Assembly (NCBI GenBank): GCA_035221665.1
Contig: CM069147.1
Span: forward strand, 12,152,001 to 12,216,000
Length of the DNA: 64,000 nt
Reading direction: 5' to 3'
Source of the DNA: Okamejei kenojei
Taxonomy: Eukaryota
Below the pieces are notes generated by a model, which was not told where the DNA came from, did no database searches, and saw only the letters and a program-made list of their open reading frames with translations. Of the stretch, positions 1 to 59,051 are shown piece after piece (the stretch's first letter is position 1; the number at the start of each line of letters is the position of its first letter). The position numbers were made by a program, and so were the translations under genes.

Positions 1-778
1 GACCAGCCTGGAAGATGCGCCAACCTCACATCCCAGCAACACAGCAACCCAAGAAAGGCCTGTTGAACAAGCCCCACCGGTAACCATGGAGATAAGGGGG
101 TCTGGTTCCCTTGGGAGTGCTGCATGCAAAACCTCACGTAGGAGGGAGATTGCGTCTGTTTGGGGATGCATGAAGTTCTACAACTTCTGACACTTTCATA
201 TTACAAAGTATTCAAGGTTACGAAATTGAATTCATAAACGGACAACTTCCCCCAGCTCAGCATGTACCTAGCCGGAAATTTGTACTTTCTCACAAAGAGA
301 AAATGGAAGGACATGCAGAACTATTAAGATTATACACCAAGGGGGTTATAGAAAAAACGATATATGAACCTCTTGAGTTTGTATCTAACATCTTTACTAA
401 AACGAAAAAAGATGGTGGATGCCGTATCATAATTGATTTAACCCAAATGAATACTTTTGTACAATATACCCATATCAAGATGGAAACATTTGAAACGGCT
501 AAGCAACTGATTTCCAGAGGGTACTTCATGGCCTGCATCGACCTAAAAGGTGCATACTATTCAGTACCTATACATAAACATCACCGTAAATACTTAAAAT
601 TTGTCTGGATGGGGCAGCAATGGCAGTATAAAGCATTACCTAATGGACTTACAACAGCCCCCAGATTATTTACCAAAATACTAAAACCAGTATTGGCGTC
701 TCTATGAAGACAAAACCACATAGTCAAGGCATATCTTGATGACATTCTGATTGTGGGAAAAACTTTGGAATTAGATAA
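1..778 (+). mobile_element. DIRS-type (tyrosine-recombinase) retrotransposon reverse transcriptase fragment, degenerate and 3'-truncated
   Basis: One frame reads VGGRLRLFGDA*...GYEIEF...KKDGGCRIIIDL...IDLKGAYYSVPI...ALPNGLTTAPRLFTKILKPV..*..AYLDDILI. In-frame TGA at 171 and 705; YLDD at 732-743. Confidence 0.8.
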
Positions 779-1939: not shown

Positions 1940-2180
1940 TCACCATCCTCTCTCAGCTACATGACCACCATTACCATGATTCTGCCTCTTGGTTTCCATC
2001 CCATCCCAGGCATTCATTTTGTTCTCTCCACCCAAATTCATTCTCTGTGACTTTAAATGTTTGATTTCAAACTTCTCTCAGTTCTGATGACAGGTCATTG
2101 ACTTGTAATGTTGACTGTGCTTGTTTCTCCACAGATGCTCAATGAACTGATGAATATTTTTCACCATTTTCTACTTTTAC
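1940..2180 (+). mobile_element. Old PLE 3' tail with decayed hammerhead motif
   Basis: cagttCTGATGAcaggtcattgacttgTAATGTTgactg followed by the ccacagatgct tail. Confidence 0.55.
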
Positions 2181-2289
2181 TCCTCACAAACCAGGGAGAA
2201 CAACTCCAGCTTCACCAATCTCTCACAGCCAAGAATCATTCCAGGAAATTTCCTCTTTTGTCTCATCAAAGCCTGTACATTCCAGATAC

Positions 2290-3441
2290 TCTGTACATTC
2301 CCAGATCTGAATCACTGTCATATTTTAATACTCAATTAACATGACAGAATTCATCAAAGTCTTTACATATTTTCTAAAATGTGGAGCCAAGAACAGGACA
2401 AACTAGAATTGCACAAAGCATCATTATGATTTCCTTGTCACCCTTTATAAAGCCCAGAAACCTGTCTATTTTTCAAATACTTTCTCAATCTGCTCAGCCA
2501 TTTTGAACAAACTTTGCAGATATCCCCATATATTTTAGTGGTGTAATCCTTAAAGAATTGATTATTGGTCTAGAATCAACTGCTGAGGAAGAGTTCCCAA
2601 CTTTTGCATGTCTTTATATGTAAACCTATTTCCCAAAAATAATTTCTGAAAGGATTCACTGTTATTTTTAATCTTGGTCTCCACAAGCCGCTGATATAGC
2701 TTTATCTATCGACCCAATTCATTTCCCTATAATCTCATAATATCTCATAAACTTCGATCACATAATCCTTTAACAGCTTAAATTCCATGGAATACAACCT
2801 GGAATATGAAATGGTGAACTGAATTATAATATTTAAACTTACTAGTTAAGTTGATGTGCAAGAATTGCTAGAAATTTCCAAAATATTTCCAACTTTACAA
2901 ATATATTGGCTTCAGTGTTACCACTAAATCATGACATTAATCTAATATCTACACATGTTCTTCGTGACCTGTAATGTTAGTGTTTGACGTTAATAAACTG
3001 AATGTTTTCTGAAAGGAATCCACTTTATCAGCATAGATAAGGTAATGAATAATTCAAACTCACCGTCTCCTGAAACAGGACTGATTTAATATTGTCAAAG
3101 ACATTAAGCAAATGAGATTGTATTGTATGGGAATCAGATGCTTGGCCGAGGATCTCCAGCAGAGTGGGGTCTGATACAAAGAAGAATCTTGGAAATATCA
3201 GCCGTTTCTTTTCCAGGTAACTGATGGTTATGAGTAGCCAGAGAAAGTAGGAAAAATAAAGCAGAGCAAAAATAAATCTCAGTTTCAGTAAACAGTGCTT
3301 TCCCCACATCTCTGAGAAAGTATAAATAATCTGTATTTAACCACAAGAAAATCTAATCAGATAAAACGCGTCTGAATCTGTACATTCCCAGATCTGAATC
3401 ACTGTCATATTTTAATACTCAATTAACATGACAGAATTCAT
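2290..3441. repeat. Perfect 65-bp direct repeat (2290-2354 and 3377-3441)
   Basis: tctgtacattcccagatctgaatcactgtcatattttaatactcaattaacatgacagaattcat occurs twice. Confidence 0.9.
3064..3220 (-). CDS. DNAH5: DNAH5-like exon (eq. exon 32), 157 nt
   Basis: catcag|T+[52 protein letters not shown]|gtgagt. Confidence 0.94.
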
Positions 3442-6400
3442 TCTGAAAGAGACAGTAAAAGAGTAGAGGCTAGTGAACTAGATGATTAAATAATAAACAA
3501 TAGAGGATTAAATCAACCCTCAGTCTTTCGCATCTGTGCACTCACTAAAATGGCTCAGTCACTTTAATCACTATCACTAAATCTCATCACTACATCATCT
3601 CAAAATTAACTCTGTGCTTTACACAGTTCCAGCATTTACCCAGTTAATGATTTCTGACATATTTCAAGTTGCTCCAGAAGATGTGGTAGCAGCCGGACCA
3701 TAGCTTCATCTCCCATGCAACACTGAACCACATTAGGGACTTCATGGGCACGATTCATTATCTTCATCCATGACTTGTCAATATTGGAAAATCTCTTTGC
3801 TTCCTGTTAAGACATAATAGATTTGGTAGATTTATCTTTGCAAATCATTCTGGTTAATGCTTTTTAGAACAAAACCATAATTTCCTTATCCAACATTTAC
3901 AATTTTGCAATTTACAGTTTTACAATTTTTAAAAACTCCTGCCAACCAAAAATAATCTTGGTCCATCAGTCTTTTTTGGGTGATAGGAAGAAAATTGATT
4001 TAAAATCTCAGAAAAAATATATATAATCGCCTGGTTCCAGTAGATGACATTACTTTGGAGATGGGAAAACATGTTGGTAAAGATTTTTTCTTCCAAAATA
4101 CTCTTGCTATATAACCAAATGGAAATGAACTCCTAATGCACAGAGCATCCTGCCCGTCTAGTTAAGGTTTATATCAGAATTCTTATTTTTTTGCATGATC
4201 TGCAATTATGTTTTCCTGATTCCTATGTGAAGCAATAAACAGATTTTTAATATTGAGATATTTCACTTAGTTCCTCATTAGTGTGAATGTCTCATTCCAA
4301 TGAACAGATGTGACATCATTACATCTGATTCTGAAGAATCGTCACCCATCCTTTTTCTTCAGAGATACTGCCTGGTCTGCTGAGTTATTCCAGCACTTTG
4401 CGTCTTTCTGTGATATAATTACAAGTCAGTTTCCCTGAAGACTGATGCACTTTGGATGAGTAAGGTACCATTGCCTAAGGTGCATCACTGGTATCAAGCA
4501 TCACCTTGAAGCAACATAGAAACATAGAAACATAGAAATTAGGTGCAGGAGTAGGCCATTCAGCCCTTCGAGCCTGCACCGCCATTCAATATGATCATGG
4601 CTGATCATCCAACTCAGTATCCCGTACCTGCCTTCTCTCCATACCCTCTGATCCCCTTAGCCACAAGGGCCACATCCAACTCACTCTTAAATATAGCCAA
4701 TGAACTGGCCTCAACTACCCTCTGTGGCAGAGAGTTCCAGAGACTCACCACTCTCTGTGTGAAAAAAGTCTTTCTCATCTCGGTCTTAAAGGATTTCCCC
4801 CTTATCCTTAAGCTGTGACCCCTTGTCCTGGACTTCCCCAACATCGGGAACAATCTTCCTGCATCTAGCCTGTCCAACCCCTTAAGCACCACCACCAATT
4901 CTGGTGTGAACCATTCTCCTCTGGTGCTGTTATTGCCCAGGATATCCAGGAAATACCAGACCCTGCCTCTAATTTACTCTCCTACCACTTCCCTACCACT
5001 TTCCTGGTCATAACAGTTCAATGTAGACAAATTAGAATCGCAGAGGCTCAAACACACTTGATGGAACTAAGTAATGATGATGCTGGCACAGCTTTAGTAT
5101 AATGCAGTTCCTTTGCTTGCTTTGGCGAGGCTGCTTACTGTCAGGAATAAAACAAATGTTAGGAATTCCCCCCTTAATCCAAGAGTCTTGTAACACTATA
5201 TAGTCATCATTTCAGATACATTCATGCTAACCTTTGGTAGCTGCTTGGCAATATCTCCACCCACAAACACTGCTTCCAGATACACCCATAGGTTTTGTAC
5301 AGTCAACCAGCTCTCAATTATATCTATTGTGGAGGATAGGTTGTGCACCCACTTTTGAATAAGTTCTTTAAATGGACCATTGTACCTAAGGAAACAAAAT
5401 ACACATATTAACTAAATTAAAGGTAGACAGCAAATGCTGGAGTAACTCAGCGGGACAGGCAGCATCTCTGGAGAGAAGGAATGGGTGATGTTTCGGGTCA
5501 AGACCCTTCTTCAGACTGATGTCAGGGGAGTGGGAGGTACAGAGATAAAATGTAGTCGGAGACAATAACGGTGGGAGAACTAGGAAGGGGAGAGAGGGAA
5601 GGCAAGGGCGACTTGAAGTTAGAGAAGTCAATGTTCATACCGATGGGCTGTAAGCTGCCCAAGCGAAATATGAGGTGCTGTTCCTCCAATTTTTCACACT
5701 GACAATGGAGGAGGCCCAGGGCAGAAAATTACTTGGTCTGTGGTAATAATTTATTTCCAGTTTCCCACCATTCAGGATATATAGAGGAAATTTAGTGCAA
5801 TAAAAACCCAAGAGGGAATTCAGAACAAATATCGTCACTCAAAGAATATCGATTACGTGGAATTTGGGCTCAAGGAAACAAATAATCTCCCTCTGTTCCT
5901 ATTTCTTCTGGTCTAATTGTCCCCTGGGCTGAGTGGAAATTTAAAATGGCCATTGCAGAGAGTGGTTAAAAAAAGGCATGTTCGTCGTCTGTTGTGAAAT
6001 GATTACTGCCACCAACATTTCACTCCAAATTTACTTAATTAATTGAATTTAAATTCCCTCATTACCACAAAAGAACATGATTGTGTTCCTGCATCCAAAA
6101 TTTCAGGCCACTCGATGCCCGTCCAGTAAGTTAACAGCAAGGTTTCTTGACCATCGTAGCATTAATAATATTATCAACTGCAGCTGTATGAACTTGACAT
6201 TTAAATATGAATATCAGATGAGATAAACTTGCTCAGCTCCTTTGTCACTAAATGAATACATTTTAACTAATACAGATCCCCAAAGGAAAGCTTAATATAT
6301 CTATTAGAAATGCTAAACTAAATTAGCAAGCATAAGTCATTTACAAAAATACAATGATCAGACTCTAATAACTATTGTTTTCAAACTGAAAACTTATCCT

Positions 6401-9400
6401 AGCTAAACCACACTACTCTTCATTCTTTCTTACTTCAGAGTTTCCAACCATTCTTTTTTTTTCATGGCGCACAATACAAATTCCGATATTTTACTGTATT
6501 GTTTGAGAAGATTGATCGCTTGAAGTTCAATTTAATAAAATTGTCCAAAGCTAATTGATAATGCTGGTTTATGTAGCCAAAATTCAAAAAGCTATCTTAA
6601 AATATGCCCATGTAGTTAAAATGAACCATTTCAGATCCTGCACCTCTCTACCGCCAGCACATCCACGTTATTTTGTTCATGCTCTTCAATTAAACTCTCT
6701 CCAACCTCAATATATTGAAATTTTCCACTTAGTCCTTTTTGGAACTGTGAATATCCTCGTCATTCTCAATCTTCCTGACCTTGTAAACTCTATAGATTGG
6801 GTTACAAGTTTTGTATTAACTGAATCCTAAATGTCAATCACTCCCATTACCCTTCTATTCATGACCTTTATCAAATTCTCGTTTCCCGAGTCCTCATTTA
6901 TACCCGAGGCTTCTTCATATGTCTTTCCAATGAAAAAATAGTTTGAAAGTGTTTAATATAAATGCTTCTCAGTTAAAATAATCGTGCAAGAAATAGTTCT
7001 TCGATTTCCACAAATCTACAGTAGTTCATCGAGAAAGCGTTGACTAATATACAATGAAATTAACCCTCAATGTTGAATATTTATTTTCCGATATGTATGA
7101 CTCGCAAAATAGATGTTTTAATAATAAATAAATAAAACTGCCTGTAGTTAGATAATAATCAAGTTAAACACTATCTGGGGGATTAATTAAGGTCCAGACA
7201 AAAATATAGCAAAATAAATAATTTCACTTTTCATTTTTGTTGTTTAATTTCCTTTTATTCTTGACATTTTACTAATCCATTCAAATACAGGGCATGCACG
7301 CAGATCTTACCTGTTGTTCAGGAGGGAAGCAAGAACCATTAAACTATCTTCTGCAAGTGAGATGATCTCAGATGTGTTGTCACCGCGGAGAAGCAGCTCA
7401 CCACGTGATTTAAAGTTGGCAAATGTGAAGTATCGATTATCCCACTCTGCTAAGACTAGCTTCAGCTTCTGTTCAATATCTTTTTCTTTCACAGCACTGA
7501 TGCAAATATCCTAATATCAAAACACAGTAATTATCAGTTCACAAGTTTCCTCAACTCACCTTGTGACTGAAACCGGTCAGTTATAAATCAGAATTGCACA
7601 GATTCAACATCTTTCTTTGAAAATAAGCAGGTTCTTGGATCATATGAAATGATCCCCTGTCAACTATAAATCTGGAGTAGGGGACAGCCTGGTTCGTGGT
7701 TGGTGGTGAGGCAAGGCAGAGGTCAGCATGGGGATAAGTTCAAATGGAGGAAAATGAACAACGTTTAAGTCTGCCAGTCGATACTGCAGACTGTGGTTTA
7801 GATGCCCAGGGGTAATTAGTTGAGCCAAGTTAGGGATGGAAGTGCAGTATAGACAGGGCAATAGTGGGCTGGGAAAGATAGTATGAACAAGCCTGAGTGC
7901 ATGTGTTACTTTAGGAGACACACCCATGGCAGGTTCCCAGCAGGTTCCGACCACGGCCTGCACCCCAGGCAAGCACTGTGGTAGACCACACCACACTGTG
8001 GGTTCCTGCTTCACTAGATTGCAATTGCAAAAGGCTGGGCGTCTTTGCGAATTAGCTCCTAAAACACACATGGGGTCTGGAAGGATAACCATGAGCTTAC
8101 TGTGAGCCTACAATATTCAATTCAAATATGTTTACGTTGGTATTGCATTGCATGTGGAAGGTGGAGGTGGGAGTCGAGGAAGAGGTGGAGTGTTACTCAT
8201 ATAGCTCTGAAACATTATTAATAAGGGCAAATAATATTGAAGGAGAGTGTTATGGTCACCAGTGGCAAAAACTGCAGAAAAGTTGTGCAAAGGCGTGGAG
8301 GGATCGTGCATAGACGGTGGCCCTTATTAATAATGTTTACACGATGTAAACAAGGAAGCCTGATTTGCTGTCTCATATTCCATGTGCAGCCAGACCTGAG
8401 GTGTTCAAATGATGCAAGGAGCAATATATGCATGAAGGGGACCAAGTGTAGATCTCTTGTTGTTTCCAGAGTTACCAACATAGATGACCAGAAAATAACC
8501 TTTTGGTGAGGATGGTCCAGCTATGATTAAATACACAAGAGGCAAAAAATAAATAAAAGCAGCCCTACTGACCAAAACTATTGGAGGAACATGCTATGGT
8601 CACCCGTGGCATAAACTGCAGAAAGGTAGAACAAAAGCACGGAGGGATTGTGCACAGAAGATCGCCTTATAAATAATGATTCAGAGCTACGTCTGTCACT
8701 TTAATTAGAACCTATCAGACATGAAGCTAAGTGAAGATGCTCACTTAAGGATTTTGAAAAGGAAAGGGAATTGGCAGATGGAACTGTTTGTACAGCTTCT
8801 ATAATGTATTGGTGCAAGCAATAACAGAAATATATTCATAAGAATCATCAGATAAATTATTGAATTAATGGAATTAGAAAATGGCTTTGATTTTTAATTT
8901 CTTCCCACTATCCATGCATTGTTCTTTTATTAAATTCACTTTAAAGTCATTGCTGATTATTTGATCATTTGAAACAGTTCTCCAGCATATGGAAAATGCA
9001 GCAGGAAACAGATGTGTTATAACATTTCTTCTCTGGTTATTTTCATGAGAGGAATTTAAATTTGACTTCTGGAATGACTTCTTCATCTTTTAACACAAAC
9101 CATTGATAGAAATTCCCTTCAATTATTAATTTTCTACAAATCAGAACACACCTCAATTTCTTCTTTGTACTTTAGAAGTGGGGCTTCCATTATGTTGGAC
9201 AATTTAAACGTTTCACTGTCAACGTCAAAGTCTTGGTTCATGACACGGCCAATGCCCTGCCAATGACGAGGCATCAAAGCCTTATTGGACATCATCTCCA
9301 ATAGGGGACAACTTTCATTGAAGTCATCGATGGTCTGCTTTAAATCAAGGTAGGCTGGCCATTCCTTCAAACCTCGAGGCAGTTTGCGGCATCTGAAACG

Positions 9401-51400: not shown

Positions 51401-54400
51401 TTGGCCTCCACTGCCCTCTGTGGCAGGGAATTCCATAAATTCACAACTCTCTGGGTAAAAAAGTTGTTTCTCAGCTCAGTCTTAAATGACCTCCCCTTTA
51501 TTCTAAGACTGTGGCCCCTGGTTCTGGACTCGCCCAACTTTGGGAACATTTTTCCTGCATCTAGCTTGTCCAGTCCTTTTATAATTTTATATGTTTCTAT
51601 AAGATCACCCTTCATCCTTCTAAACTTCAGTGAATACAAGCCTAGTCTTATCAATCGTTCCTCCTATGACAGTCCCGCCATCCCAGGGATCAATCTCGGG
51701 AACCTATGCTGCACTGCCTCAATCACAAGGATGTCCTTCCTCAAATTAGGAGACCAAAACTGTACACAATACTCCAGATGTGGTCTCACCAGAGCCCTAT
51801 GCAACTGCAGAAGAACCTCTTTACTCCTGTACTGAAATCCTCTTGTTATGAAACAAGAACAACGTGAGCACAAGCAGGGCTGAGGATTTTCTGCTCTATC
51901 AGCATTTTCAAAACATATTTTCATATATTTATTAGATAATTTAAAATAAGTTGTGTTCAAGTGTGGAGAAGGTAATTTTATGATAAATCAATGTGTTTGT
52001 TACAAATTATATTGATGGCAATTTCACTTTCAAAAACCAAATTTGATTCCAAAAGTAATATTACAGACAAATATACAAGTTAAAAGAAGATATTGCCTTT
52101 GATATTTATCTATCTTGTTTTAAATTACTTCGACACATTTTCAGTGCTAATAAACGCAAAATAATAATTCCAGGTGTTGTACACAGTATAGTCTGACCTT
52201 TAATACCGACCTTCATTATCTTTTAACAGAAAATTGGACTCTGAGGAAGAACTACATTAAATGTTCCTGAAATGTATTTTCAGTAATTTTAGTGAAGCCC
52301 ATTTGTGTCCATACATCAGCATCAAATAAAATTCTGAATAATTAGTCATTGTAAGGAGTACAAGAATAAGGAGTAAACCATTTAGAACGGAGACGAGCAA
52401 ACACTTTTTCTCACAGAGAGTGGTGATTCTGTAGAATTCTCTGCCTCAGAGGGTGGTGGAGGCAGGTTCTCTGGATGCTTTCAAGAGAGAGCTAGATAGG
52501 GCTCTTAAAAATAGCGGAGTCGGGGGATATGGGGAGAAGGCAGGAACGGGGTACTGGTTGGGGATGATCAGCCATGATCACATTGAATGGCGGTGCTGTC
52601 TCGAAGGGCCAAATGGCCTACTCCTGCACCTATTGTCTATTGTCTATTGTATCTGTCTAAACTTTACTTTTAGACTTTAAAGATACAACGTGGAAACAGG
52701 CCCTGTGGCCCACCGAGACCACGCTGACCTATGCATACTAGGCACAATATTTTTCACAACTTCCCTAAGCCAATTAACCTACAAATCTAGTTGGATTGTG
52801 GGTGGAAACTGGAGCACCCAGAGAAAACCCACGAGGTCATGGGGAGAACGCCCAGACAGCACCCGTTGTCAGGCTTGAACCTGGGTCTTTGGTGCTCTAA
52901 AGCAGCAATTCTACCGCTGCGCCACCATGTCGCCCTTTAAAGAGAAGATCATTTTAATTTAGTCATAATGCAACTGACTAGGAATGGCAGCCTTTGGTCA
53001 TCTGTAACAGGAAGAAGCTCTAAAAAAGCTGAGCTAAGTAAGTACGGGATGACTGAAATCACCCCTGGTTCAAGGTAGAAGATTGAGGCTTGCGCTTGTC
53101 AGTTGGCTCGGTCCAAGAATATTGCAGCGGGGATTCCCTTAGCCAGTTGCTAGCCCCACCCAGCTTCAGCAATGAATCATCATCACATTAGAAGGGCTAT
53201 TCACTGGCAAATGGGCAAAGTTCAGAAAATACCACAATCCATACACTCAAGCAGCTAGACCTAGGCAACAATGAACTTACAGGTGGATGGTAACATTAGC
53301 ACCACCTCCAACAAGAGGAAATCTAAGCATCGCCCCATGCCATTTAATGATAGGATCATCACCCACATCATTGATATCCCGGGGTCATGAATGATCAAGA
53401 ATTCATCTGAACATACAAAACCCACGTAGTTAGTAAAACAAATTGGGAGTTAAATATATTTGGAACAAGTGCCTTGTCCCTTAACCCTGCCAGACTTTTC
53501 TACTGCTTAGATGACACAAACTAGAGATGCCCACTGGGTTGGGTGGATGTAGCTCTGTCAACACTCAGAAAACATGACCCCAAACAAGCCGAATAAATTA
53601 TCTTTATCAACATTCCCATTATCAACATTTCACTTACTTGCCTAAGCATCCACCATCTCCATAATGGGCACACTGTGCTAATTTCTCAACACTTATTATC
53701 TGAAAGGCTAAAGGCAGCATTTAGATAGGTACAGTATCATCCCACAGATTCATCCAAATCACTGAATATCCCAATATATCATGTTGCTGAATCAAACATG
53801 TGGTAATAACTGCATGCTTGGAAATATTTTAAACAACTTGCCCTGTGTATGTTTTCGTATGTGATGGCTCTGCTGGCATTCCCTCGAAGAAAAACAATAC
53901 AAATTCCAGTCAAACCAGCATGTTTCCCATCGGTAAGAAACAGCTTCTTCATTTTGCAACTTGTAAATCCTGCATAGGGTCCACTTGGTTCAAGAGCAAC
54001 TACATAATGATATAAAATAATATTGTAAACTCAGTATGTCACAAATCTTCATTAAAATTAGTTTGCTATTCATAATGGTGGCTAATCCCTCATGATTATT
54101 TCACCAAAACATAGTTATTTTGTTAAAATTTGCAGATTTAATGCATTTGAAGAATCTTACCAGGAAGTCAATAACTTGAATTAAAGGTCGACATCATACA
54201 GAAGAAAATCTTTAGGCTACTTTTTGATATTCCTGCATTTTTTTAATTACTTTTCCAACAAAACAGAAAAAACTAGAAATACTCGGGAGATTATTTGTCA
54301 ACGGAAATACAGAATTAATACTTCACGGCAAATGTTTTTCATCATAACTGAGAAAAAATGGAAATGAAACAAGTTTTAATATGTAGAGAAAGGGTGAAGG

Positions 54401-57400
54401 ACTTGAGAAAATAAATGGTAATTACGGTCCATGATTGCGTGGAGACCAGGAGATGGACTGATAAAGGTAACTTTAACATGTGAATAGGAGGAGATGAATG
54501 AAATCTGAAATACCAGAAAGAGAAAAGAAAATGAATGTGTAAATGTGAGATGCATGTCTAAATGGTTCATTATCTGAAATGATTGAATTCAGTGTTGAGC
54601 CTGGAAGGCTGCCTCACATCACGTTAGAAGATGATGTGGTTTTCGTCGAGCTAATGCAAGCTTCATCAGAACAATGATGGAGCCCAAAGTCATGTACACT
54701 AGAGTGGGGAACACAAGGAGGCAGAAAACTGGAATCTTGGATCAACCTTGCAACTGAAGAGGTATGCCAGAAAATGGTCATTCAATCTGCACCTTGTTTT
54801 TTGCCCAATAAAGTAACCAGCTAAACAGATGCATTTATTTGGTGGAAGTACATGAAGTTAATTGAAATAACTACATTTCTGCATGATTTGAAAGTAATGT
54901 TTGGGTCCAGATGCACCTTTGCCACCTTCCTTCAACAAGTAACATAATTTTAATCATTCAACTTCACTTGGTTTACACTTTATCAAAGTCATTACCCAAA
55001 GTCATATCTCTCGTTTCCCTGATCCCTGACCAGTCTGAAGAAGGGTCTCGACCCGAAACGTCGCCTATCTCCTTCGCTCCTTAGATGCTGCTGTACCCGC
55101 TGAGTTTCTCCAGCTTTTTGTGTACCCTCATTACCCTTTGTTCTCTCCACTTCTCGTCCTCTTTGCAAATATTCATTTCAATTCCAATCACACCTTCGTT
55201 TGAAAGGTTCACTTGAAACATTGACTCTAATCTCTCCAGAAATATTGCACAATGTACGATTTCTAGCATTTCTTGTTTATATTTCCTATTTCATGTACAA
55301 GCAGTACGGTATTTTACTTCTCTCCAACTCTTTCAACTTTATCCTTGCAACATGAAACATTCATCTGTTCCTTATCTATTATTGAACTTAAAATGCCATT
55401 AGTAGTCATGTAAAGAGAATGTAGAATAATTTTTCCTATGTAGGAAAGAACTGCAGATGCTGGTTTAAATCGAAGGTAGACACAAAATGTTGGAGTAACT
55501 CAGCGGGACAGGCAGCATCTCTGGAGAGAAGGAATGGGTGACGTTTCGGGTTGAGACCCTTCTTCAGATTCATTCTTCCTATTTTTGCTGATACAAATTT
55601 GGATAATACCGACTAGATTAAGAAAAATGTTGGTTCATGAATCAAAACTGATTGAATACTTGAAGTACAGAGGAAATATCATAAAATAAATAAAAAGGAG
55701 TCATGATGGTTTATCAGAATAGATTAGCAGATAGCCTGAAAGGGAATCTGAAAGTCTTTCATAAACATACAAGTAGTGAAAGGATAGTGAAAGAATACAC
55801 TTGATTAAGGATAAAAGAGCAGAACTTCTTACATGGTAGGGAACATCATTATTGTGGTAAATGAGTAATTTGCATCCATCTTCACTAAAGTAATAAGTAC
55901 TGACAATTATTTGGTAAAAGGGAATATATTAAACCAGTGACATTTAGAAGATTGGCAGATCTTAAATAAGAAAAGTCACTCATTATGGAAGGAGTGATTG
56001 AAATTGCTCACAATCTTTTAATGTTTCTTTGAAATGGGAAGGATGCCAGAGAACTGGAAGAATACAAATGTTAAACCCATGTTTAGAATAAGAGAGAGCG
56101 ATAAACCTGGTGACCACAAAACAGTTATACAACAATGGTAGTGTGGATACTTTGAAATAATAATTGAGGACAAAAATTAATTGGCACCATGAAAAAGTAT
56201 TAATAAATGAAAGCCAACATGGATTTCTTAAGTAGAAGGGTCTTGACCCGAAACATCACCCATTCCTTCTCTCCAGAGATGCTGCCTGTCCCGCTGAGTT
56301 ACTCCAGCATTTTGTGCCTACGGATTTCTTAAAGCCTCTTGATGTATATATGACGATGAATTCTTCAAAGTAATCGAGGATCCTGATGATGGTGCTGTGA
56401 TTAATGTTACGAATACGGACTTTCAAAAATCATGTTATAAACTACCACATCAGAGATTTATTAGACCAATTAAAGCATGTGGGAGTAAAAGAGAAATGTT
56501 TGTGTGATTGGCACAGGTACCGACTGCAAGTAGTATTATGTGGCTATTTGTGAGACAAAGAGCAGTATTCTGTAATATTTACACAGGTCAACTTTGAAAC
56601 CATTATTTTTGAGCTGGACAGTATTACTAAGGACAAAACTTCCAAGTTTTCATGTGGCATGAAACTTGGAAATGTAGTAAGCAATAGGGAGAGGAGAGTA
56701 ATGTTTCAGTCTCATACAAGAAACAAAATCTAGAATAAATAACTACTATGCAGAACACCTCCATATGTATAGTCTGCACGAAAGACTACGTTTCCAGTTG
56801 TCTGTTTAATCCTCTTTCTCACTCCCATTCTGACCTCTTGATCATTGGCCTCCAATACTTTTCCAACAAAGGTCATCAGAAGTTTGACCACTTCACATTA
56901 AATTGAACAATTTCAGATCATCAGTCATTCATAGATAGGAGTCTATATAACACAGGCAAAGGCCCTTCAGCCCACGATGACCCATGCTGGTCATTCAGTA
57001 CATATCAAATGTGATTGGAAAATGTAGATTGATGTTGCATGTTAACCAATCACACATCAGCCAGCATCTCTAAATCCACCCCACTGTAATACTTATACTA
57101 ACACTATTTCCCAGCACGGACAGTGGGAGCAGCCAGGATGTACTAACAAACTAATCAACCTTCATGCTGTTAAGTTTCAGTGCTGATTAAAGATGTATTT
57201 GAATCACGTACTGAGTCTGGAGGTCGTTTAAAGAAAATGAATCACTCTTTCGAGCACTTGGCCCACAGCTTGTCATACCTTGGCAATTCCAGTGCTGGTC
57301 TATATACAACATAATATTCTGATTGTCACTGCCTCCACCACCCTTTCAATCTGTTTTTCTAAGCTACAGAAGGCAAATTCTGAATCTGACTGGCCAGGCC

Positions 57401-59051
57401 ACATGACTTGCTTCTTCATAATACCCGCATTAAAATGCATTAACAATAAGGAACTAAGAACAGGGAATAATGTTTGATCTTGTAAAATTATGATTAATTA
57501 TTATCCACATCTTTGTCATTCATTTATTTCAGTAATCTGTATCTAACATAGAAACATAGAAAATAGGTGCAGGAGTAGGCTATTCAGCCCTTTGAGTCAG
57601 CACCATCATTCAATTTGATCATGGCTGATCATCCAAAATCAGAACCCCGTTCTTGCTTTCTCCCCATATCCCCTGATTCCATTAGCCCCAAGAGCTCTAC
57701 CTAACTCTCTCTTTAATACATCAGTTTTGCGAGTTTGTGCAAGTGTTTGCAAATGTAAATAAAGTACAACCTGGTTCTGGATGATCGACTTCTTGGTAGA
57801 AGAACAGGAGGCTTTGCCTGCCACCAACAATGAAAAAAATATCAATCTGTTCCAGCTGAAAAAGATGAACATTTATTTTGTAATCAGTATTATTATTTTT
57901 GAACTAAACGAAGTTCCCTGTTTTCTCTTCTCTCTAACCGTTCACACCATGCATCATCAATATCTGAGAATCAAACAATCTTATCTTGGCAATATGATGG
58001 CAAAAAACAGTTGCATCCCATCTCTGTAAATACACATTAATCTGCATTTAGTAACAATCCCTATCCTAACTTCCCCATCCCCTACTAAAAGTATATTATT
58101 AAAATTTGTGCACCCAAATATTAGCAACTGTTTGTTCTTGTACTTCAGTCGGGCGGCACAGTTGCGCAGCGGTAGAGTTGCTGCCTTATAACACCGGACT
58201 AGAGTTTGATGCTGACTATATAGTAGGTTCTGTCTGTATGGTGTTTGTATGTTCTCAAAGTAACTGCGTGGGTTTTCTCCGGGTGCTCCGGTTTCCTCGC
58301 ACACTCCAAAGATGTACAGGCTTGTAGGTTAATTGGCTTTGATAAAAATTGTTAATTGTTGCATGTGTGTAGGATGGTGCTCGAAGATTGGGAGATCACT
58401 TGTGGATTCATGCCCACCAGTGACAATGGCCAGACAAATCTAAACTAATTTTAGTCAAAATAAGGCAATAGACGAGAATACACAGAGTGCCGGAATAGCT
58501 CAGTGGGTCAAGCAGAATCTCAGAACATGGATAGGTGATGAGGAAAGGGCACAGAGGAGGTTTACCAAAATTATGTCTGCATTAATGGGTATTAGCTGCA
58601 GGATGAGGTTGGATAGATTTGGATTGTCGCGCCGGAGAGAGACCTGATAGAAGCATATAAAATTCTGAGAGGCATCGATAACGTAGACAAACAGAATATT
58701 TTTCCCAAGATGGAAAAAATCAATCACTAGAGGGCATAGCTTTAATGCATGTTACATAGTTATGAGAACTAAATCTATTTAAAGAAGGGTCTCGACCCGA
58801 AACGTCGCCTATCTCCTTCGCTCCTCAGATGCTGCTGCACCCACTGAGTTTCTCCAGCTTTTTGTGTACCCTCTATTTAAATAATATTATGTACAGAAAA
58901 AAAGAGCCGTACTTACTTGAGATCCTTCCAGTATAGTATCTTCAATGTCAGACTTCTCCAAAGGGACACAGGTTGCCACCATATCAAAAATATATTCATG
59001 TCTGGGGTCTAACTGCAGCCGCTTAGCTTCATGTTCCTCTCTTAGTTTGTG
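3064..59051 (-). CDS. DNAH5: Dynein axonemal heavy chain 5-like, partial gene: 31 coding exons equivalent to DNAH5 exons 2-32; incomplete at both ends
   Basis: The spliced exons total 5145 nt (1715 codons) with consistent phases and AG/GT boundaries (one GC donor). Peptides such as [47 protein letters not shown] and [10 protein letters not shown] are DNAH5/DNAH8-type; the N-terminal exons resemble DNAH5. Confidence 0.93.
3640..3803 (-). CDS. DNAH5: DNAH5-like exon (eq. exon 31), 164 nt
   Basis: taacag|[54 protein letters not shown]+GG|gtaaat. Confidence 0.94.
4513..4886 (-). mobile_element. CR1/HER1-type LINE 3' fragment
   Basis: [35 protein letters not shown]; (CTATGTTT)n tail. Confidence 0.9.
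5232..5385 (-). CDS. DNAH5: DNAH5-like exon (eq. exon 30), 154 nt
   Basis: ccttag|G+[51 protein letters not shown]|gttagc. Confidence 0.94.
5421..5725 (-). mobile_element. Penelope-like element 3' end (GIY-YIG C-terminus plus hammerhead-bearing tail)
   Basis: Minus strand reads [27 protein letters not shown], followed by CTGAAGAagggtcttgacccGAAACATC at 5487-5514. Confidence 0.8.
7311..7510 (-). CDS. DNAH5: DNAH5-like exon (eq. exon 29), 200 nt
   Basis: tattag|[24 protein letters not shown]...LASLLNN+AG|gtaaga. Confidence 0.94.
9152..9392 (-). CDS. DNAH5: DNAH5-like exon (eq. exon 28), 241 nt
   Basis: tttcag|A+[24 protein letters not shown]...[11 protein letters not shown]|gtgtgt. Confidence 0.94.
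11602..11840 (-). CDS. DNAH5: DNAH5-like exon (eq. exon 27), 239 nt
   Basis: tttcag|[26 protein letters not shown]...[10 protein letters not shown]+AG|gttaac. Confidence 0.94.
12270..12631 (+). mobile_element. CR1/HER1-type LINE 3' fragment
   Basis: [37 protein letters not shown]; (CTATTGT)n tail. Confidence 0.9.
13275..13337 (-). CDS. DNAH5: DNAH5-like exon (eq. exon 26), 63 nt
   Basis: cattag|[21 protein letters not shown]|gtaaaa (cf. human [21 protein letters not shown]). Confidence 0.9.
14119..14337 (-). CDS. DNAH5: DNAH5-like exon (eq. exon 25), 219 nt
   Basis: tcgcag|[31 protein letters not shown]...FFQDYEK|gtattg. Confidence 0.93.
14531..14564 (-). ncRNA. Minimal hammerhead ribozyme motif (intact core) in PLE tail 14468-14600
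   Basis: Minus strand agtCTGAAGAagggtcccgacccGAAACGTCacc: CUGANGA box, stem II, GAAA, palindromic ACGU stem III, GUC site. Confidence 0.7.
15085..15822 (+). mobile_element. GC/CpG-rich non-autonomous retroelement ending AATAAA-(GATTCT)n
   Basis: Sharp GC-rich island with poly-G at 15192-15212; ends gaataaagtgtgattctgattctga. Confidence 0.55.
16461..16785. mobile_element. Fold-back pair of PLE tails flanked by a 16-bp target-site duplication
   Basis: gagttctgtttctatg at 16461-16476 and 16770-16785; the arms are reverse complements and each has a hammerhead-like core. Confidence 0.8.
17341..17576 (-). CDS. DNAH5: DNAH5-like exon (eq. exon 24), 236 nt
   Basis: aaacag|..[14 protein letters not shown]...[12 protein letters not shown]...QIGPIE|gtagga. 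Confidence 0.93.
17927..18128 (-). CDS. DNAH5: DNAH5-like exon (eq. exon 23), 202 nt
   Basis: tcctag|[21 protein letters not shown]...CPFALYA+G|gtatat. Confidence 0.92.
18428..18850 (-). mobile_element. Two adjacent or nested CR1 LINE 3' fragments
   Basis: [18 protein letters not shown] fragment (18430-18690) plus a second CR1 3' UTR (18690-18850). Confidence 0.75.
19010..19110 (+). mobile_element. PLE tail with mutated hammerhead core
   Basis: cagaagaagggtctcgaccaaaaacgtcacc...cgctgagttactccagc. Confidence 0.7.
20044..20162 (-). CDS. DNAH5: DNAH5-like exon (eq. exon 22), 119 nt
   Basis: tttcag|..[39 protein letters not shown]|gtaagc. Confidence 0.88.
20860..21396 (+). mobile_element. CR1/HER1-type LINE 3' fragment
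   Basis: [10 protein letters not shown]...[12 protein letters not shown]...RTRGHSLRI; (CTATTGT)n tail. Confidence 0.9.
22142..22244 (-). CDS. DNAH5: DNAH5-like exon (eq. exon 21, poorly conserved), 103 nt
   Basis: taacag|[34 protein letters not shown]+G|gtaatt; bridges phase 0 to phase 1 as the neighbours require. Confidence 0.78.
22405..22715 (-). mobile_element. CR1 LINE 3' fragment
   Basis: [32 protein letters not shown]. Confidence 0.8.
22957..23144 (-). CDS. DNAH5: DNAH5-like exon (eq. exon 20), 188 nt
   Basis: ccttag|..[39 protein letters not shown]...WGKKRMTN|gtatgt. Confidence 0.88.
23195..23490 (-). mobile_element. HE1-type tRNA-derived V-SINE (a second partial copy lies at ~23645-23835)
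   Basis: Minus strand head gcagtggtagagttgctgccttacagcgccagagacccc, V-domain-like core and CR1-like tail. Confidence 0.75.
24668..24898 (-). CDS. DNAH5: DNAH5-like exon (eq. exon 19), 231 nt
   Basis: tgacag|..[11 protein letters not shown]...[32 protein letters not shown]...LYQ+G|gtatga; acceptor chosen to keep phase 1. Confidence 0.82.
25561..25755 (+). mobile_element. CR1 LINE 3' fragment
   Basis: cagaaggcagtggagg...gaagggccaatggcctactcctgcacctattttctatgtttc. Confidence 0.8.
25842..25962 (-). CDS. DNAH5: DNAH5-like exon (eq. exon 18), 121 nt
   Basis: taacag|[40 protein letters not shown]+G|gtacag. Confidence 0.88.
27273..28221. mobile_element. Probable non-autonomous DNA transposon (hAT-like termini) with (CT)n and a GC-rich internal segment
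   Basis: Left catggatggaaatc versus reverse complement of right end caggggtggaaatc; subterminal G/C runs; no clear TSD. Confidence 0.5.
28342..28487 (-). CDS. DNAH5: DNAH5-like exon (eq. exon 17), 146 nt
   Basis: ccacag|..[48 protein letters not shown]|gtaact. Confidence 0.92.
28830..29490 (-). mobile_element. Deu-domain SINE (SacSINE1/AmnSINE1-like), interrupted by a + strand CR1 fragment at 29187-29396
   Basis: Minus strand tgcagtgctgagggagtgct...cctggccagt...gtggaaccttgctgt...aaattggc; CR1 insert flanked by tgcatt at 29181-29186 and 29397-29402. Confidence 0.7.
29536..29707 (-). CDS. DNAH5: DNAH5-like exon (eq. exon 16), 172 nt
   Basis: tttcag|[57 protein letters not shown]+G|gtaatg. 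Confidence 0.92.
29845..30104. mobile_element. Possible Tc1/mariner (Tigger-like) MITE remnant
   Basis: Right end acgcaagttggggagtacctg-TA resembles a Tigger-type TIR; the left TIR was not found. Confidence 0.35.
30865..31058. mobile_element. Fold-back pair of PLE tails
   Basis: agacacaa..gagtaactcagtgggtcaggcag / ctgcctgatcccactgagttactcc..gtgtcttt. Confidence 0.7.
31060..31480 (+). mobile_element. Rex1/Babar-type LINE 3' fragment, decayed
   Basis: [29 protein letters not shown]; poly-C insertion at 31113-31131. Confidence 0.6.
33530..33736 (-). CDS. DNAH5: DNAH5-like exon (eq. exon 15), 207 nt
   Basis: tttcag|[28 protein letters not shown]...MYNKLQ|gtatga. Confidence 0.93.
34345..35085 (-). 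mobile_element. CR1/HER1-type LINE 3' fragment
   Basis: [42 protein letters not shown]. Confidence 0.9.
35680..36001 (-). CDS. DNAH5: DNAH5-like exon (eq. exon 14), 322 nt
   Basis: tttcag|G+[12 protein letters not shown]...[22 protein letters not shown]...LYHRAWMQQ|gtagac. Confidence 0.94.
36075..36265. mobile_element. Fold-back pair of PLE tails, decayed
   Basis: Minus arm gagtaactcaacaggtcagacagcatct and plus arm agtCTGAAGAagggacctgacccaaaacatc..gatgctgcctgacc. Confidence 0.65.
36653..36738 (-). CDS. DNAH5: DNAH5-like exon (eq. exon 13), 86 nt
   Basis: tgacag|[28 protein letters not shown]+AA|gtaagt. Confidence 0.9.
37005..37625 (-). mobile_element. Nested HE1-type V-SINEs (younger copy ~37093-37404 inside an older copy)
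   Basis: Two SINE heads and two tails in nested order; cactta at 37087-37092 and 37405-37410. Confidence 0.8.
39552..39659 (-). CDS. DNAH5: DNAH5-like exon (eq. exon 12), 108 nt
   Basis: tttcag|[36 protein letters not shown]|gtttgt. Confidence 0.9.
39899..40513. mobile_element. Non-autonomous DNA transposon (PIF/Harbinger-like MITE)
   Basis: TAA|gggcctgtcccacttaggcgattttttcggcgact ... agtcaccgaaaaaatcacctaagtgg (inverted; right terminus truncated); internal caacctacgac repeats. Confidence 0.65.
40787..41002 (-). CDS. DNAH5: DNAH5-like exon (eq. exon 11), 216 nt
   Basis: cattag|[36 protein letters not shown]...IANKFQ|gtaata. Confidence 0.93.
41570..41603 (-). ncRNA. Minimal hammerhead motif in short PLE tail (41525-41603)
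   Basis: Minus strand agtCTGAAGAagggtttccgcccGAAACGTT. Confidence 0.55.
41808..42050 (+). mobile_element. CR1 LINE 3' fragment
   Basis: aggaatctgaggggtaacctt...ggttgggccgaaagacctgtttcc. Confidence 0.75.
42233..42355 (-). CDS. DNAH5: DNAH5-like exon (eq. exon 10), 123 nt
   Basis: tttcag|[41 protein letters not shown]|gtaatt. Confidence 0.93.
43296..43412 (+). mobile_element. 89-bp PLE-tail insertion with 14-bp TSD
   Basis: taagcaatagtaac at 43296-43309 and 43399-43412; the insert starts at (c)tgaagaag. Confidence 0.8.
43430..43712 (+). mobile_element. Deu-domain SINE fragment
   Basis: ctcaggttgatgtaaaaga...ggtgtatcggccaaaatt...actacacttcattggctgtaaagtg...tatataaatg. Confidence 0.65.
44135..44242 (-). 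CDS. DNAH5: DNAH5-like exon (eq. exon 9), 108 nt
   Basis: ccccag|[36 protein letters not shown]|gtgaga. Confidence 0.93.
44361..44474 (-). CDS. DNAH5: DNAH5-like exon (eq. exon 8), 114 nt
   Basis: ttgcag|[38 protein letters not shown]|gtaggt. Confidence 0.93.
44963..45570 (-). mobile_element. CR1/HER1-type LINE 3' fragment (abuts an older + strand CR1 piece at 44700-44930)
   Basis: [35 protein letters not shown]; (CTATTGT)n tail. Confidence 0.9.
45941..46117 (-). CDS. DNAH5: DNAH5-like exon (eq. exon 7), 177 nt
   Basis: tttcag|[25 protein letters not shown]...AAKSKLLK|gtctga. Confidence 0.93.
46225..47760 (+). mobile_element. Rearranged Penelope-like element: inverted tail, then GIY-YIG coding pieces and 3' tail, split by an inverted duplication
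   Basis: [36 protein letters not shown] (to 46632) resumes as [33 protein letters not shown] (from ~47393); tail with ctgaagaagggtctc at ~47669. Confidence 0.75.
46637..48529. repeat. 682-bp inverted duplication (46637-47318 / 47848-48529) with 529-bp spacer
   Basis: The arms are reverse complements with about 17 substitutions counted by eye; they give the twin 106-aa ORFs on opposite strands. Confidence 0.93.
48832..48963 (-). CDS. DNAH5: DNAH5-like exon (eq. exon 6), 132 nt
   Basis: ttttag|[44 protein letters not shown]|gtcagg. Confidence 0.9.
49639..49857 (-). CDS. DNAH5: DNAH5-like exon (eq. exon 5), 219 nt
   Basis: ttttag|[28 protein letters not shown]...AAHDNLAKE|gtgagt. Confidence 0.92.
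50222..50455 (+). mobile_element. CR1 LINE 3' fragment
   Basis: gagggtggtgaatctgtggaattc...gggagaaggcaggagaatgg. Confidence 0.75.
51209..51853 (-). mobile_element. CR1/HER1-type LINE 3' fragment
   Basis: [33 protein letters not shown]; (CTATGTTT)n tail. Confidence 0.9.
52362..52650 (+). mobile_element. CR1/HER1-type LINE 3' fragment
   Basis: Same subfamily as 12270-12631; (CTATTGT)n tail. Confidence 0.85.
52655..52935 (-). mobile_element. HE1-type V-SINE
   Basis: Minus strand ggcgcagcggtagaattgctgc head and gtgggttttctctgggtgctccagtttcc core. Confidence 0.75.
53842..53999 (-). CDS. DNAH5: DNAH5-like exon (eq. exon 4), 158 nt, GC donor
   Basis: atgtag|..[52 protein letters not shown]|gcaagt. 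Confidence 0.85.
55031..55065 (+). ncRNA. Minimal hammerhead ribozyme motif (intact core) in PLE-tail insertion 54998-55127
   Basis: cagtCTGAAGAagggtctcgacccGAAACGTCgcc; insertion flanked by tcattaccc at 54989-54997 and 55128-55136. Confidence 0.72.
55537..55570 (-). ncRNA. Minimal hammerhead ribozyme motif (intact core) in PLE-tail insertion ~55440-55570
   Basis: Minus strand aatCTGAAGAagggtctcaacccGAAACGTCacc. Confidence 0.7.
55640..56700 (+). mobile_element. Old, heavily decayed CR1 LINE RT region
   Basis: Remnants of [20 protein letters not shown] and YTDFQKS motifs. Confidence 0.55.
56221..56332 (+). mobile_element. 90-bp PLE-tail insertion with 11-bp TSD inside the old CR1
   Basis: ggatttcttaa at 56221-56231 and 56322-56332; insert agaagggtcttgacccGAAACATC... 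Confidence 0.8.
57546..57728 (-). mobile_element. CR1 LINE 3' fragment
   Basis: [23 protein letters not shown]; (CTATGTTT)n tail. Confidence 0.8.
57771..57855 (-). CDS. DNAH5: DNAH5-like exon (eq. exon 3), 85 nt
   Basis: tttcag|[28 protein letters not shown]+G|gttgta. Confidence 0.88.
58151..58445 (+). mobile_element. HE1-type V-SINE
   Basis: gggcggcacagttgcgcagcggtagagttgctgcc...gcgtgggttttctccgggtgctccggtttcctc..ctccaaaga. Confidence 0.8.
58774..58881 (+). mobile_element. 88-bp PLE-tail insertion with 10-bp TSD
   Basis: tctatttaaa at 58774-58783 and 58872-58881; insert gaagggtctcgacccGAAACGTC... Confidence 0.8.
58917..59051 (-). CDS. DNAH5: DNAH5-like exon (eq. exon 2), 135 nt
   Basis: ttgcag|[45 protein letters not shown]|gtaagt. 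Confidence 0.9.

What the first reader, a model, noticed from the sequence alone, without database searches (positions are those of the whole stretch)
2081..58881. Dispersed family of Penelope-derived mini-elements carrying a minimal hammerhead ribozyme
Seen: about 20 copies of a tail with CTGAAGA-agggtc(tc)gaccc-GAAACGTC (or CTGATGA...GAAAC variants). Intact cores lie at 14531-14564(-), 41570-41603(-), 55031-55065(+) and 55537-55570(-). At 5421-5725 and 47390-47760 the tail follows a GIY-YIG C-terminus, tying it to Penelope-like elements. Established: PLEs of many animals carry minimal type I hammerheads whose palindromic stem III is proposed to act as a dimer. Inference: this genome hosts a very high-copy (about 1 per 3 kb) ribozyme-bearing family that gene annotation would miss. 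Stem I is only about 2 bp in the CTGAAGA subfamily, so activity is uncertain.
Basis: partly seen in the sequence, partly recalled or inferred. Interest (0 to 1): 0.78.

Follow-up and report, generated by a model that had tools for sequence, protein, structure and literature searches.

The report
Penelope retroelement tails with minimal hammerheads
The introns of a dynein gene, probably in a skate or ray, are littered with short decaying end-pieces of a known kind of jumping gene, each carrying a minimal self-cutting RNA motif; this is a new and very abundant example of a known arrangement, and its one unexplained feature is that many copies begin right at the start of the ribozyme.

Summary
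A profile search finds 27 family members in 64 kb (0 in 4 controls), all in introns of a DNAH5-type gene. They are 5'-truncated 3' ends of endonuclease-bearing Penelope-like elements (PLEs), probably Neptune-type: GIY-YIG C-terminus, pyrimidine-rich UTR, minimal type I hammerhead, tail. Target-site duplications and inverted pairs with one short and one long tail fit PLE insertion. Four copies keep a complete core with the ACGU palindrome; only two also keep the 2-bp helix I. The core is invariant between subfamilies while the tail diverges (1/22 versus 16/59 columns). Individual copies decay neutrally, so selection acted on source elements. About 270,000 contigs in each of three DNA runs match one 480-base stretch. 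Minimal hammerheads in animal PLEs are published (2014), as is PLE expansion in shark introns; activity is untested here and folding disfavours an unaided ribozyme. One new clue: among contigs laid on one copy, 5' ends, tandem joints and inverted joints cluster 2-5 nt upstream of the core, not at the cleavage site, over an initiator-like motif. Solo copies may be run-off cDNAs of uncleaved RNA that starts there. New member of a known kind.

The parts
2077..2180 (+). Older CTGATGA-type (B) copy: 5-bp helix I, 5-bp helix II, GAAA mutated; tail
4331..4417 (+). A-type copy with helix II deleted; tail
5413..5728 (-). PLE 3' end: endonuclease C-terminus, pyrimidine-rich 3' UTR, hammerhead (C3 at 5514; palindrome lost by CpG change at 5489), short tail. 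This is the copy laid with contigs.
5606..5728 (-). GIY-YIG endonuclease C-terminal fragment, 41 codons
   Evidence: 74% to P0008, E 1.5e-8
13517..13571 (+). Weak B-type tail remnant
   Evidence: E 0.007
14460..14640 (-). A-type copy with UTR remnant and complete minimal hammerhead (core 14561 to 14534; predicted cut after 14534); sense to the host pre-mRNA. The upstream end is approximate.
16461..16785 (.). Head-to-head inverted pair (16470-16572 minus, short tail; 16643-16768 plus, long tail) inside a 16-bp target-site duplication
19009..19112 (+). A-type copy starting 1-2 nt before the core; core mutated
21421..21509 (+). Decayed B-type copy
30851..31071 (.). Inverted pair (short tail on minus, long tail on plus) inside an 11-bp target-site duplication
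31689..31805 (+). Decayed B-type copy with long tail
36070..36260 (.). Inverted pair (long tail on minus; plus copy with core, GAAA mutated)
41514..41620 (-). A2 copy, complete core (C3 at 41599) but helix I lost by deletion; 10-bp target-site duplication
43296..43412 (+). A1 copy starting at C3; 14-bp target-site duplication
46225..46480 (-). A3 copy with 17-nt insertion in helix II, long tail and UTR
46467..46637 (+). Further endonuclease fragment (the two histidines of the CCHH region), inverted to the 46225-46480 copy
   Evidence: E 7e-6 to P0008; E 0.003 to P0004
46850..46990 (+). B-type copy (palindrome lost) with long tail; duplicated at 48176-48316(-)
47317..47366 (-). Endonuclease end joined directly to the hammerhead 5' half through a shared AGT; cut off in helix II
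47377..47767 (+). PLE 3' end: endonuclease C-terminus (47377-47490), UTR, decayed hammerhead (C3 at 47669), short tail
48176..48316 (-). Duplicate of the 46850 B-type copy within a 682-bp inverted duplication
50612..50637 (-). Weak tail remnant
   Evidence: E 0.007
54989..55136 (+). A2 copy with about 35 nt of UTR and complete minimal hammerhead (core 55035-55062; predicted cut after 55062); 9-bp target-site duplication
55430..55572 (-). A1 copy with complete core (C3 at 55567), 1-bp helix I, long tail; starts 1-3 nt before the core
56221..56332 (+). A1 copy starting inside the core; 11-bp target-site duplication
58477..58540 (-). A3 tail without core
58774..58881 (+). A2 copy starting inside the core; 10-bp target-site duplication
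3031..59051 (-). Host gene: axonemal dynein heavy chain (DNAH5-type); all family copies lie in or just beyond its introns

Best explanation
The repeats are dead-on-arrival 3' ends (pseudo-LTR pieces) of endonuclease-bearing, probably Neptune-type, Penelope-like retroelements in a probable skate or ray genome. SHOWN: the order endonuclease C-terminus, C/T-rich UTR, minimal type I hammerhead, tail; 9-16 bp AT-rich target-site duplications; inverted pairs with one short and one roughly 40-nt longer tail; several subfamilies; a core fixed between subfamilies but decaying neutrally in each copy. INFERRED from the anole PLE (PMC11167929): the element protein binds the tail, nicks AT-rich DNA, and starts reverse transcription at one of two internal tail sites, which gives the two 3' ends. 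It copies uncleaved RNA through the hammerhead and usually stops at or just beyond the hammerhead's 5' edge, leaving a solo copy of about 100 or 140 nt. INFERRED: the hammerhead matters only in the source element's RNA, where it cleaves slowly as a dimer through the ACGU palindrome and probably only with help from the element protein. Solo intronic copies are mostly inert.
For: Endonuclease fragments directly upstream of 2 copies and beside 2 more. Nearest named relatives are PLE pieces caught in skate, stingray and whale-shark gene models (6 of 15 hits looked up). P0008 and the unrelated contig L001 show the CX3-4CxxC linker and a GIY-YIG domain, and L001 has nearly the same core in its 3' UTR. 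Exact flanking repeats of at least 9 bp in 7 of 18 units versus 4% in 2000 random pairs. Subfamily differences in 1 of 22 hammerhead versus 16 of 59 tail non-CpG columns (p=0.03). Private changes core 6.0% versus tail 8.6% (p=0.34), and 23% at core CpGs. About 59% of summed contig depth at 5489 carries the intact palindrome letter. The hammerhead fold is 3.6-7.1 kcal/mol above the optimum in 5 of 6 copies once 60 nt downstream of C3 are included. The dimer fold alone is -6 to 0 kcal/mol versus -14 to -30 for free co-folding. Orientation to the host gene is 12 sense to 15 antisense (p=0.70), and 3 of 4 complete cores are in sense.
Against: No reverse transcriptase domain of the element lies in the window and no full-length relative was retrieved (empty). 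Clade and autonomy therefore rest on P0008 and L001, not on this genome. Subfamily consensuses come from 3-6 related copies, with ties resolved toward the global consensus. RNAalifold found no consensus structure in 18 copies. Nearest-neighbour energies ignore the core's tertiary contacts and so understate hammerhead stability. No cleavage data.
Confidence: 0.85

Rival explanations
1. The solo copies are not random truncations but complete run-off cDNAs of an RNA whose capped 5' end lies 2-3 nt upstream of the core. The hammerhead DNA then doubles as an internal RNA polymerase II promoter (initiator at the AGT before C3, downstream elements within helix II and the GAAAC strand). Reverse transcription from the tail copy nearest the 5' end yields the 100/140-nt units, which can be transcribed again, SINE-like. 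This refines the best explanation rather than replacing it.
For:: loose ends at 5516 and 5517 are among the 6 best-supported places in X1 (1490, 1485) and X6 (1371, 1420), and 5516 in X12 (1296). Their flanks are AT-rich at only 0.31-0.33 agreement, as unrelated DNA would be. 11 of the 15 listed joints (tandem and inverted) have one side at 5516-5519. The cleavage site (5487/5486) is not among the top places of the three DNA runs. The first loose letter at 5516 is G on the element strand in 3 of 3 DNA runs, as a copied cap might give. In the window 7-8 of 16 A copies begin within about 8 nt of C3. With that A as +1, the 5514 copy matches the TCAGTY initiator, 3 of 6 copies read CGANC at +18 to +22, and 4 of 5 DPE letters match in the undecayed copies (consensus from PMC5580651). 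D. virilis Penelope has an internal initiator/DPE promoter (PMC2377424).
Against: Only the top 6 places per run and 15 of 728 joints were shown, so the sharpness of the peak is unknown, and the three runs are related genomes. The upstream UTR is hypervariable, so some clipping there is an alignment effect. The promoter matches are post hoc, use Drosophila consensus motifs that are rare in humans, are partly forced by the helix II sequence, fail at +27 to +29, and are absent from the B type and from L001 at that spacing (read by eye). In D. virilis the start site is about 120 nt upstream of the hammerhead and the AG there is a splice acceptor. Window boundaries scatter from about -35 to +8.
Confidence: 0.25
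2. The preferred 5' boundary arises because reverse transcriptase falls off or switches template on entering the C-rich 3' UTR, or because the AG before helix I is a splice acceptor, so the template RNA changes there. No promoter role.
For: The UTR upstream is 73-90% pyrimidine in 7 copies. Summed depth falls about 20-fold from helix II to 5523-5538 and recovers partly over the endonuclease. The D. virilis intron ends at helix I (PMC4209133).
Against: A constant spliced exon would give a high-agreement loose consensus, and the observed agreement is 0.31-0.33. The endonuclease-to-hammerhead junction at 47331(-) has one letter more than a GT-AG splice product would (read by eye). The peak lies before, not within, the C-rich tract.
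Confidence: 0.45
3. The copies are active ribozymes kept by the host to process dynein pre-mRNA, or are retrozyme-like elements spreading through cleaved, circular RNA.
For: Four complete cores, 3 in sense to the host gene. Short tandem joints of 82-93 nt exist in the contigs. Tandem hammerhead repeats are reported from one chondrichthyan (bioRxiv 2026.07.22.740005).
Against: Core letters decay at the background rate and core CpGs are lost. Copies are solo or head-to-head, so same-strand dimers are unavailable in the window. No boundary peak at the cleavage site. Tandem joints are tens of contigs against about 270,000 laid.
Confidence: 0.05
4. The motif only resembles a hammerhead by chance or is conserved for another reason (protein binding, promoter).
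For: Helix I is only 2 bp in the main type. No Rfam hammerhead hit. The predicted fold is unfavourable.
Against: It matches the published PLE consensus at every core position, with the bulge, the G-C closing pair and the palindrome. It sits where PLE hammerheads sit. Helix pairs are kept with changes: U-A or U-G at the first helix I pair within A; G-C versus U-A at the second, and G-C versus A-U at the base of helix II, between A and B (4 decayed B copies). Two-bp helix I also occurs in D. virilis, Culex and Oikopleura.
Confidence: 0.05

Closest known systems
Minimal type I hammerheads in pseudo-LTRs of metazoan PLEs (Cervera and de la Pena 2014, PMC4209133)
   Same: Core, bulged base, G10.1-C11.1 pair, no-loop palindromic helix III, position after the endonuclease, mostly solo dispersed copies, and pairs in opposite strands.
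   Different: No cartilaginous fish found in the parts read or searched (one supplement file not searchable). Density is far higher: 4 complete cores in 64 kb versus about 4,000 (coelacanth) and 9,000 (Xenopus) per genome. Helix I is 2 bp and helix II 4-5 bp, at the short end of the range.
Neptune/Nematis-type C-terminal GIY-YIG PLEs (Craig et al. 2021, PMC8557442)
   Same: C-terminal endonuclease, CX2-5CxxC linker in the nearest relatives, 5' truncation, inverted copies, a 30-40 bp tail at one end only.
   Different: Neither reverse transcriptase nor linker cysteines are preserved in the window; no microsatellite targeting was seen.
Anole Poseidon element PAc (Frangieh et al. 2024, PMC11167929)
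   Same: Hammerhead followed by a tail with two ends; AT-rich targets; no sign that cleaved RNA is the inserted form.
   Different: A different clade. Its hammerhead was shown to cleave only with protein; nothing is shown here.
Animal non-LTR retrozymes (PMC7229834; bioRxiv 2026.07.22.740005)
   Same: Non-coding, hammerhead-bearing, PLE-related.
   Different: Retrozymes are tandem 150-450 bp units, typically with canonical hammerheads and boundaries set by cleavage. These copies are solo or inverted, minimal, and begin before the core.

Membership tests
Minimal type I hammerhead of PLEs | CUGANGA and GAAA core with NUH triplet | tested here: met
   4 complete sites, simulation mean 0.02
Minimal type I hammerhead of PLEs | Helix II with unpaired base before G10.1-C11.1 | tested here: met
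   49 of 55 pairs in the 11 correctly anchored A rows; 2 of 13 rows were mis-anchored by one base and dropped
Minimal type I hammerhead of PLEs | Palindromic no-loop helix III | tested here: met
   ACGU in 4 of 8 descriptor hits; majority letter in contigs
Minimal type I hammerhead of PLEs | Helix I closing the ribozyme | tested here: inconclusive
   2 bp in A (15 of 22 pairs in 11 rows), 5 bp in one B copy; predicted probability at most 0.16
Minimal type I hammerhead of PLEs | Self-cleavage as dimer or with protein | not testable with these tools
   No raw RNA reads listed
Endonuclease-positive PLE | C-terminal GIY-YIG endonuclease upstream of the pseudo-LTR | tested here: met
   Fragments match P0008 at E 4e-10, 1.5e-8 and 7e-6; P0008 and P0004 hit PF01541 (P0008 below the curated cut-off)
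Endonuclease-positive PLE | Telomerase-like reverse transcriptase in the same ORF | tested here: inconclusive
   Absent from the window apart from a non-significant linker-like match (E 2.9); searches for long relatives were empty
Endonuclease-positive PLE | 5' truncation, inverted copies, 30-40 bp tail at one end, variable target-site duplication | tested here: met
Neptune clade | CX2-5CxxC linker and reverse-transcriptase phylogeny | tested here: inconclusive
   Linker present in P0008 and L001, not preserved in the window; no tree built; Nematis shares the linker
Non-LTR retrozyme | Head-to-tail tandem units, each with a hammerhead | tested here: not met
   None among the 27 window hits; rare tandem joints in contigs

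The most novel reading that the evidence does not exclude
In cartilaginous fishes the PLE hammerhead overlaps the element's own transcription start. The hundreds of thousands of 100/140-nt solo copies are complete run-off cDNAs from an internal priming site to the capped 5' end, forming a promoter-carrying, polymerase II-driven SINE-like family and possibly one of the largest ribozyme-motif families in any genome. The 2-bp helix I follows from the RNA starting 3 nt before the core.
Probability: 0.25. Interest if true: 0.62.

Novelty: new member of a known kind. Interest (0 to 1): 0.33.

Why it matters
As a class it is known. What is added is an apparently unreported chondrichthyan family at a density that, if this window is typical, implies on the order of 100,000 complete cores per genome (an extrapolation from 4 in 64 kb). 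Such a family is a large natural record of where PLE reverse transcription starts and stops. The role of PLE hammerheads is an open question. The boundary pattern (two 3' ends, 5' ends just before the core, none evident at the cleavage site) agrees with the anole in vitro result that uncleaved RNA is what gets inserted, and it gives a cheap genome-scale test of the start-site idea.

Tried and rejected
No whole genome is held, so genome-wide counts rest on contigs. Rfam gave no hammerhead match. Pfam missed the three short endonuclease fragments. Homolog searches for longer relatives of P0003 and P0008 were empty. Pattern scans found nothing in viral contigs or prokaryote genomes; the metagenome scan gave one locus. 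No RNA holder was listed; the run guessed as RNA (X18) was flagged as probably DNA, so nothing is concluded on expression. Summed contig depth is not a copy number and is used only for shape. A specific 'anti-core' strand in the tail was considered and not supported: pairing exceeded shuffled tails at 5% in only 1 of 5 copies (fractions 0.035-0.665). RNAalifold on 18 copies gave no structure. The endonuclease-to-hammerhead junction at 47331(-) as a splice product was rejected (one extra letter). Earlier scan findings: none by sequence or place; the word search returned other systems. Lunse et al. (PMC5785218) was not held. Repbase and Dfam were not available, so whether this family already has a named consensus is unchecked; I think it likely (recall, no call).

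Full report
Setting. The window (39% GC) spans most of the 5' half of an axonemal dynein heavy chain gene on the minus strand. DHC_N1 and DHC_N2 domains were found, the nearest named proteins are DNAH5, and 23 exon matches run from 59051 down to 7310. No family copy overlaps a mapped exon. No whole genome is held. The organism is probably a skate or ray. This is an inference: all 6 looked-up relatives of the endonuclease fragment come from Rhinoraja, Hypanus and Rhincodon gene models (6 of 15 hits).

Observation. nhmmer built on 15 seed copies finds 27 hits, 24 strong and 3 weak, and none in the reversed window or three shuffles. A hammerhead descriptor finds 8 sites with both core strands and helix II, against a simulated mean of 0.28. 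Four also have the loop-less ACGU helix III, against 0.02. Rfam reports no hammerhead.

Origin. Two copies run endonuclease C-terminus, C/T-rich UTR, hammerhead, tail (5413-5728 minus; 47377-47767 plus). Further endonuclease pieces lie at 46467-46637 and 47332-47366. The fragments match stingray protein P0008 at E 4e-10, 1.5e-8 and 7e-6. P0008 and the ORF of metagenome contig L001 carry a GIY-YIG domain and a CX3-4CxxC linker. That linker marks Neptune and Nematis (PMC8557442, passages). L001 has almost the same core downstream of its ORF, though without a helix I. Seven of 18 insertion units have exact flanking direct repeats of 9-16 bp, against 4% of 2000 random pairs. In the two inverted pairs read in full, one arm ends short and the other carries about 40 nt more. 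This is the PLE 'tail at one end' signature (PMC8557442). No reverse transcriptase of the element was found, and searches for long relatives were empty.

Abundance. A 480-base stretch holding one copy was laid with contigs at 80% likeness. It drew 271,668, 272,708 and 273,782 contigs from three DNA runs of organisms A, B and D; the near-equal numbers may be a ceiling, and the tool says not everything was counted. Summed depth in X1 is about 30 on the flanks, 25 million over helix II, 1.2 million some 10-25 nt upstream of the core and 3.5-7.6 million over most of the endonuclease. This is not a copy number, but its shape says hammerhead-plus-tail pieces outnumber endonuclease-bearing ones. If the window is typical, a genome of about 2 Gb would hold several hundred thousand copies and about 100,000 complete cores (extrapolation). 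Cervera and de la Pena counted about 4,000 in coelacanth and 9,000 in Xenopus.

Selection. Among 19 A-type copies, non-CpG core positions differ from the majority in 6.0% of cells and tail positions in 19.4% (that tail count includes ragged ends and subfamily sites). Split into four subfamilies, consensus differences fall in 1 of 22 hammerhead columns and 16 of 59 tail columns (p=0.03). Private changes are 6.0% in the core and 8.6% in the tail (p=0.34), and 23% at core CpGs (parts of two rows were masked as misaligned). So the source lineages held the ribozyme constant and the inserted copies decay freely. The subfamilies are few, small and related, so the p-value is only indicative. Helix pairs are kept with changes, within A (U-A or U-G) and between A and B (G-C versus U-A in helix I; G-C versus A-U at the base of helix II), but B rests on 4 decayed copies (2 of 13 A rows were mis-anchored and dropped from my counts). 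Against this, RNAalifold found no consensus structure.

Activity. Helix II forms with probability 0.3-0.98 in 5 of 6 short constructs but mostly melts once the pyrimidine-rich tail is present. The hammerhead fold then lies 3.6-7.1 kcal/mol above the optimum in 5 of 6 copies. The dimer fold alone scores -6.7 to +0.1 kcal/mol against -14 to -30 for free co-folding. The core-to-tail pairing is no better than shuffled tails in 4 of 5 copies, so it is compositional. These models omit tertiary contacts. They agree with the literature: minimal PLE hammerheads do not cleave as monomers and cleave weakly as multimers (PMC4209133), and the anole one cleaves only with protein and is dispensable for insertion in vitro (PMC11167929). 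Orientation to the host gene is unbiased (12 sense, 15 antisense, p=0.70), and 3 of 4 complete cores are in sense, which argues weakly against efficient cleavage.

The unexplained boundary. In one search, loose ends on the element's 5' side at 5516 and 5517, 2-3 nt before C3 (5514), are among the six best-supported places in X1 and X6, and 5516 is in X12. Their flanks are AT-rich with 0.31-0.33 agreement, unlike the G/A-rich 0.36-0.40 consensus at 5519 where the UTR continues. Eleven of 15 listed joints, tandem and inverted, have one side at 5516-5519. The cleavage site (5487/5486) is not among the top places of the DNA runs. In the window 7-8 of 16 A copies begin within about 8 nt of C3. Taking the A at 5517 as +1, this copy reads TCAGTC, the Drosophila initiator. 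Three of 6 copies read CGANC at +18 to +22, and undecayed copies match 4 of 5 DPE letters, but +27 to +29 fails (consensus from PMC5580651). By eye, 6 of 44 rows of the 2014 alignment show a similar hexamer just upstream of the core; this is not a computed test. I give 0.25 to a transcription start with run-off cDNAs and 0.45 to fall-off at the C-rich UTR or a splice acceptor. In D. virilis the start lies about 120 nt further up and the intron ends at helix I. The rest goes to alignment clipping and other causes. Only 6 places per run and 15 of 728 joints were shown, so the sharpness of the peak is unknown.

Comparison and novelty. It works like, and by every sequence feature I could test belongs to, the minimal type I hammerheads of animal PLEs; helix I is marginal and cleavage is untested. 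It is not a retrozyme, since there are no tandem units in the window. PLE expansion in whale-shark introns is published (bioRxiv 443036). Tandem hammerhead repeats are reported from one chondrichthyan (bioRxiv 2026.07.22.740005). I found no description of this solo family or its hammerhead in eight searches, which miss most subscription journals, Repbase and Dfam.

What I read. PMC4209133: parts 1-2 of 4, a supplement search and part 2 of 3 of file 2 (file 1 not searchable). PMC11167929: parts 1-2 of 4. bioRxiv 2026.07.22.740005: parts 1-3 of 5 and passages; its supplementary tables, unseen, may list this family. PMC2377424 and PMC5580651: passages and one section each. PMC8557442, PMC6155905, PMC6765202, PMC7229834, PMC8969392, bioRxiv 443036: passages. 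Lunse et al. (PMC5785218): only its title and a review's summary.

Verdict. Real, correctly interpreted, a new member of a known kind. Interest 0.33, carried by the density and the boundary clue.

Noticed in passing
window 46637-47318 and 47848-48529: A 682-bp inverted duplication (98% complementary) of flanking DNA brackets a head-to-head PLE pair, one arm of which is cut off in helix II at the junction; possibly made by the PLE insertion itself.
   Followed up: partly
window 47317-47366(-): The endonuclease end is joined straight to the hammerhead through a shared AGT, skipping the whole 3' UTR; a similar rare joint (5520 to 5619) appears in all four runs.
   Followed up: partly
proteins P0006, P0013, P0017: Skate and stingray gene models (neuromedin-U receptor 1, LAMP3, ATP synthase c) end in the PLE endonuclease C-terminus: exonised PLE ends or annotation artefacts.
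   Followed up: no
window 55063-55090(+) and other tails: The tail holds a pyrimidine run followed by CAG and then ATG, resembling a 3' splice site just downstream of the cleavage site, in both A and B types (seen by eye).
   Followed up: no
L001 118-145(-) and 306-1148(-): A metagenome contig carries an open 280-codon Neptune-like PLE 3' end with nearly the same hammerhead core but no helix I.
   Followed up: partly
window 174-707(+): An open 177-codon reverse transcriptase fragment (RVT_1, E 3.6e-7); it looks DIRS-like (recall), unrelated to the finding.
   Followed up: no
window 4614-4973(-), 12126-12521(+), 34461-34853(-), 51310-51987(-), 61154-61495(-): Many 3' fragments of one further retroelement family, probably CR1-type LINEs (recall; Pfam gave no hit for 3 tested).
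   Followed up: no
window 16500-16710(-): The inverted PLE pair scores as MIR1437 and MIR1144 below their Rfam thresholds; such intronic hairpins could give small RNAs or false miRNA calls.
   Followed up: no
long tails, e.g. window 55430-55520(-), 31689-31805(+): An 8-9 bp long-range helix is predicted between the AGATGCTG block and its complement in the long-tail extension in A and B types; a candidate protein-binding or priming structure.
   Followed up: partly
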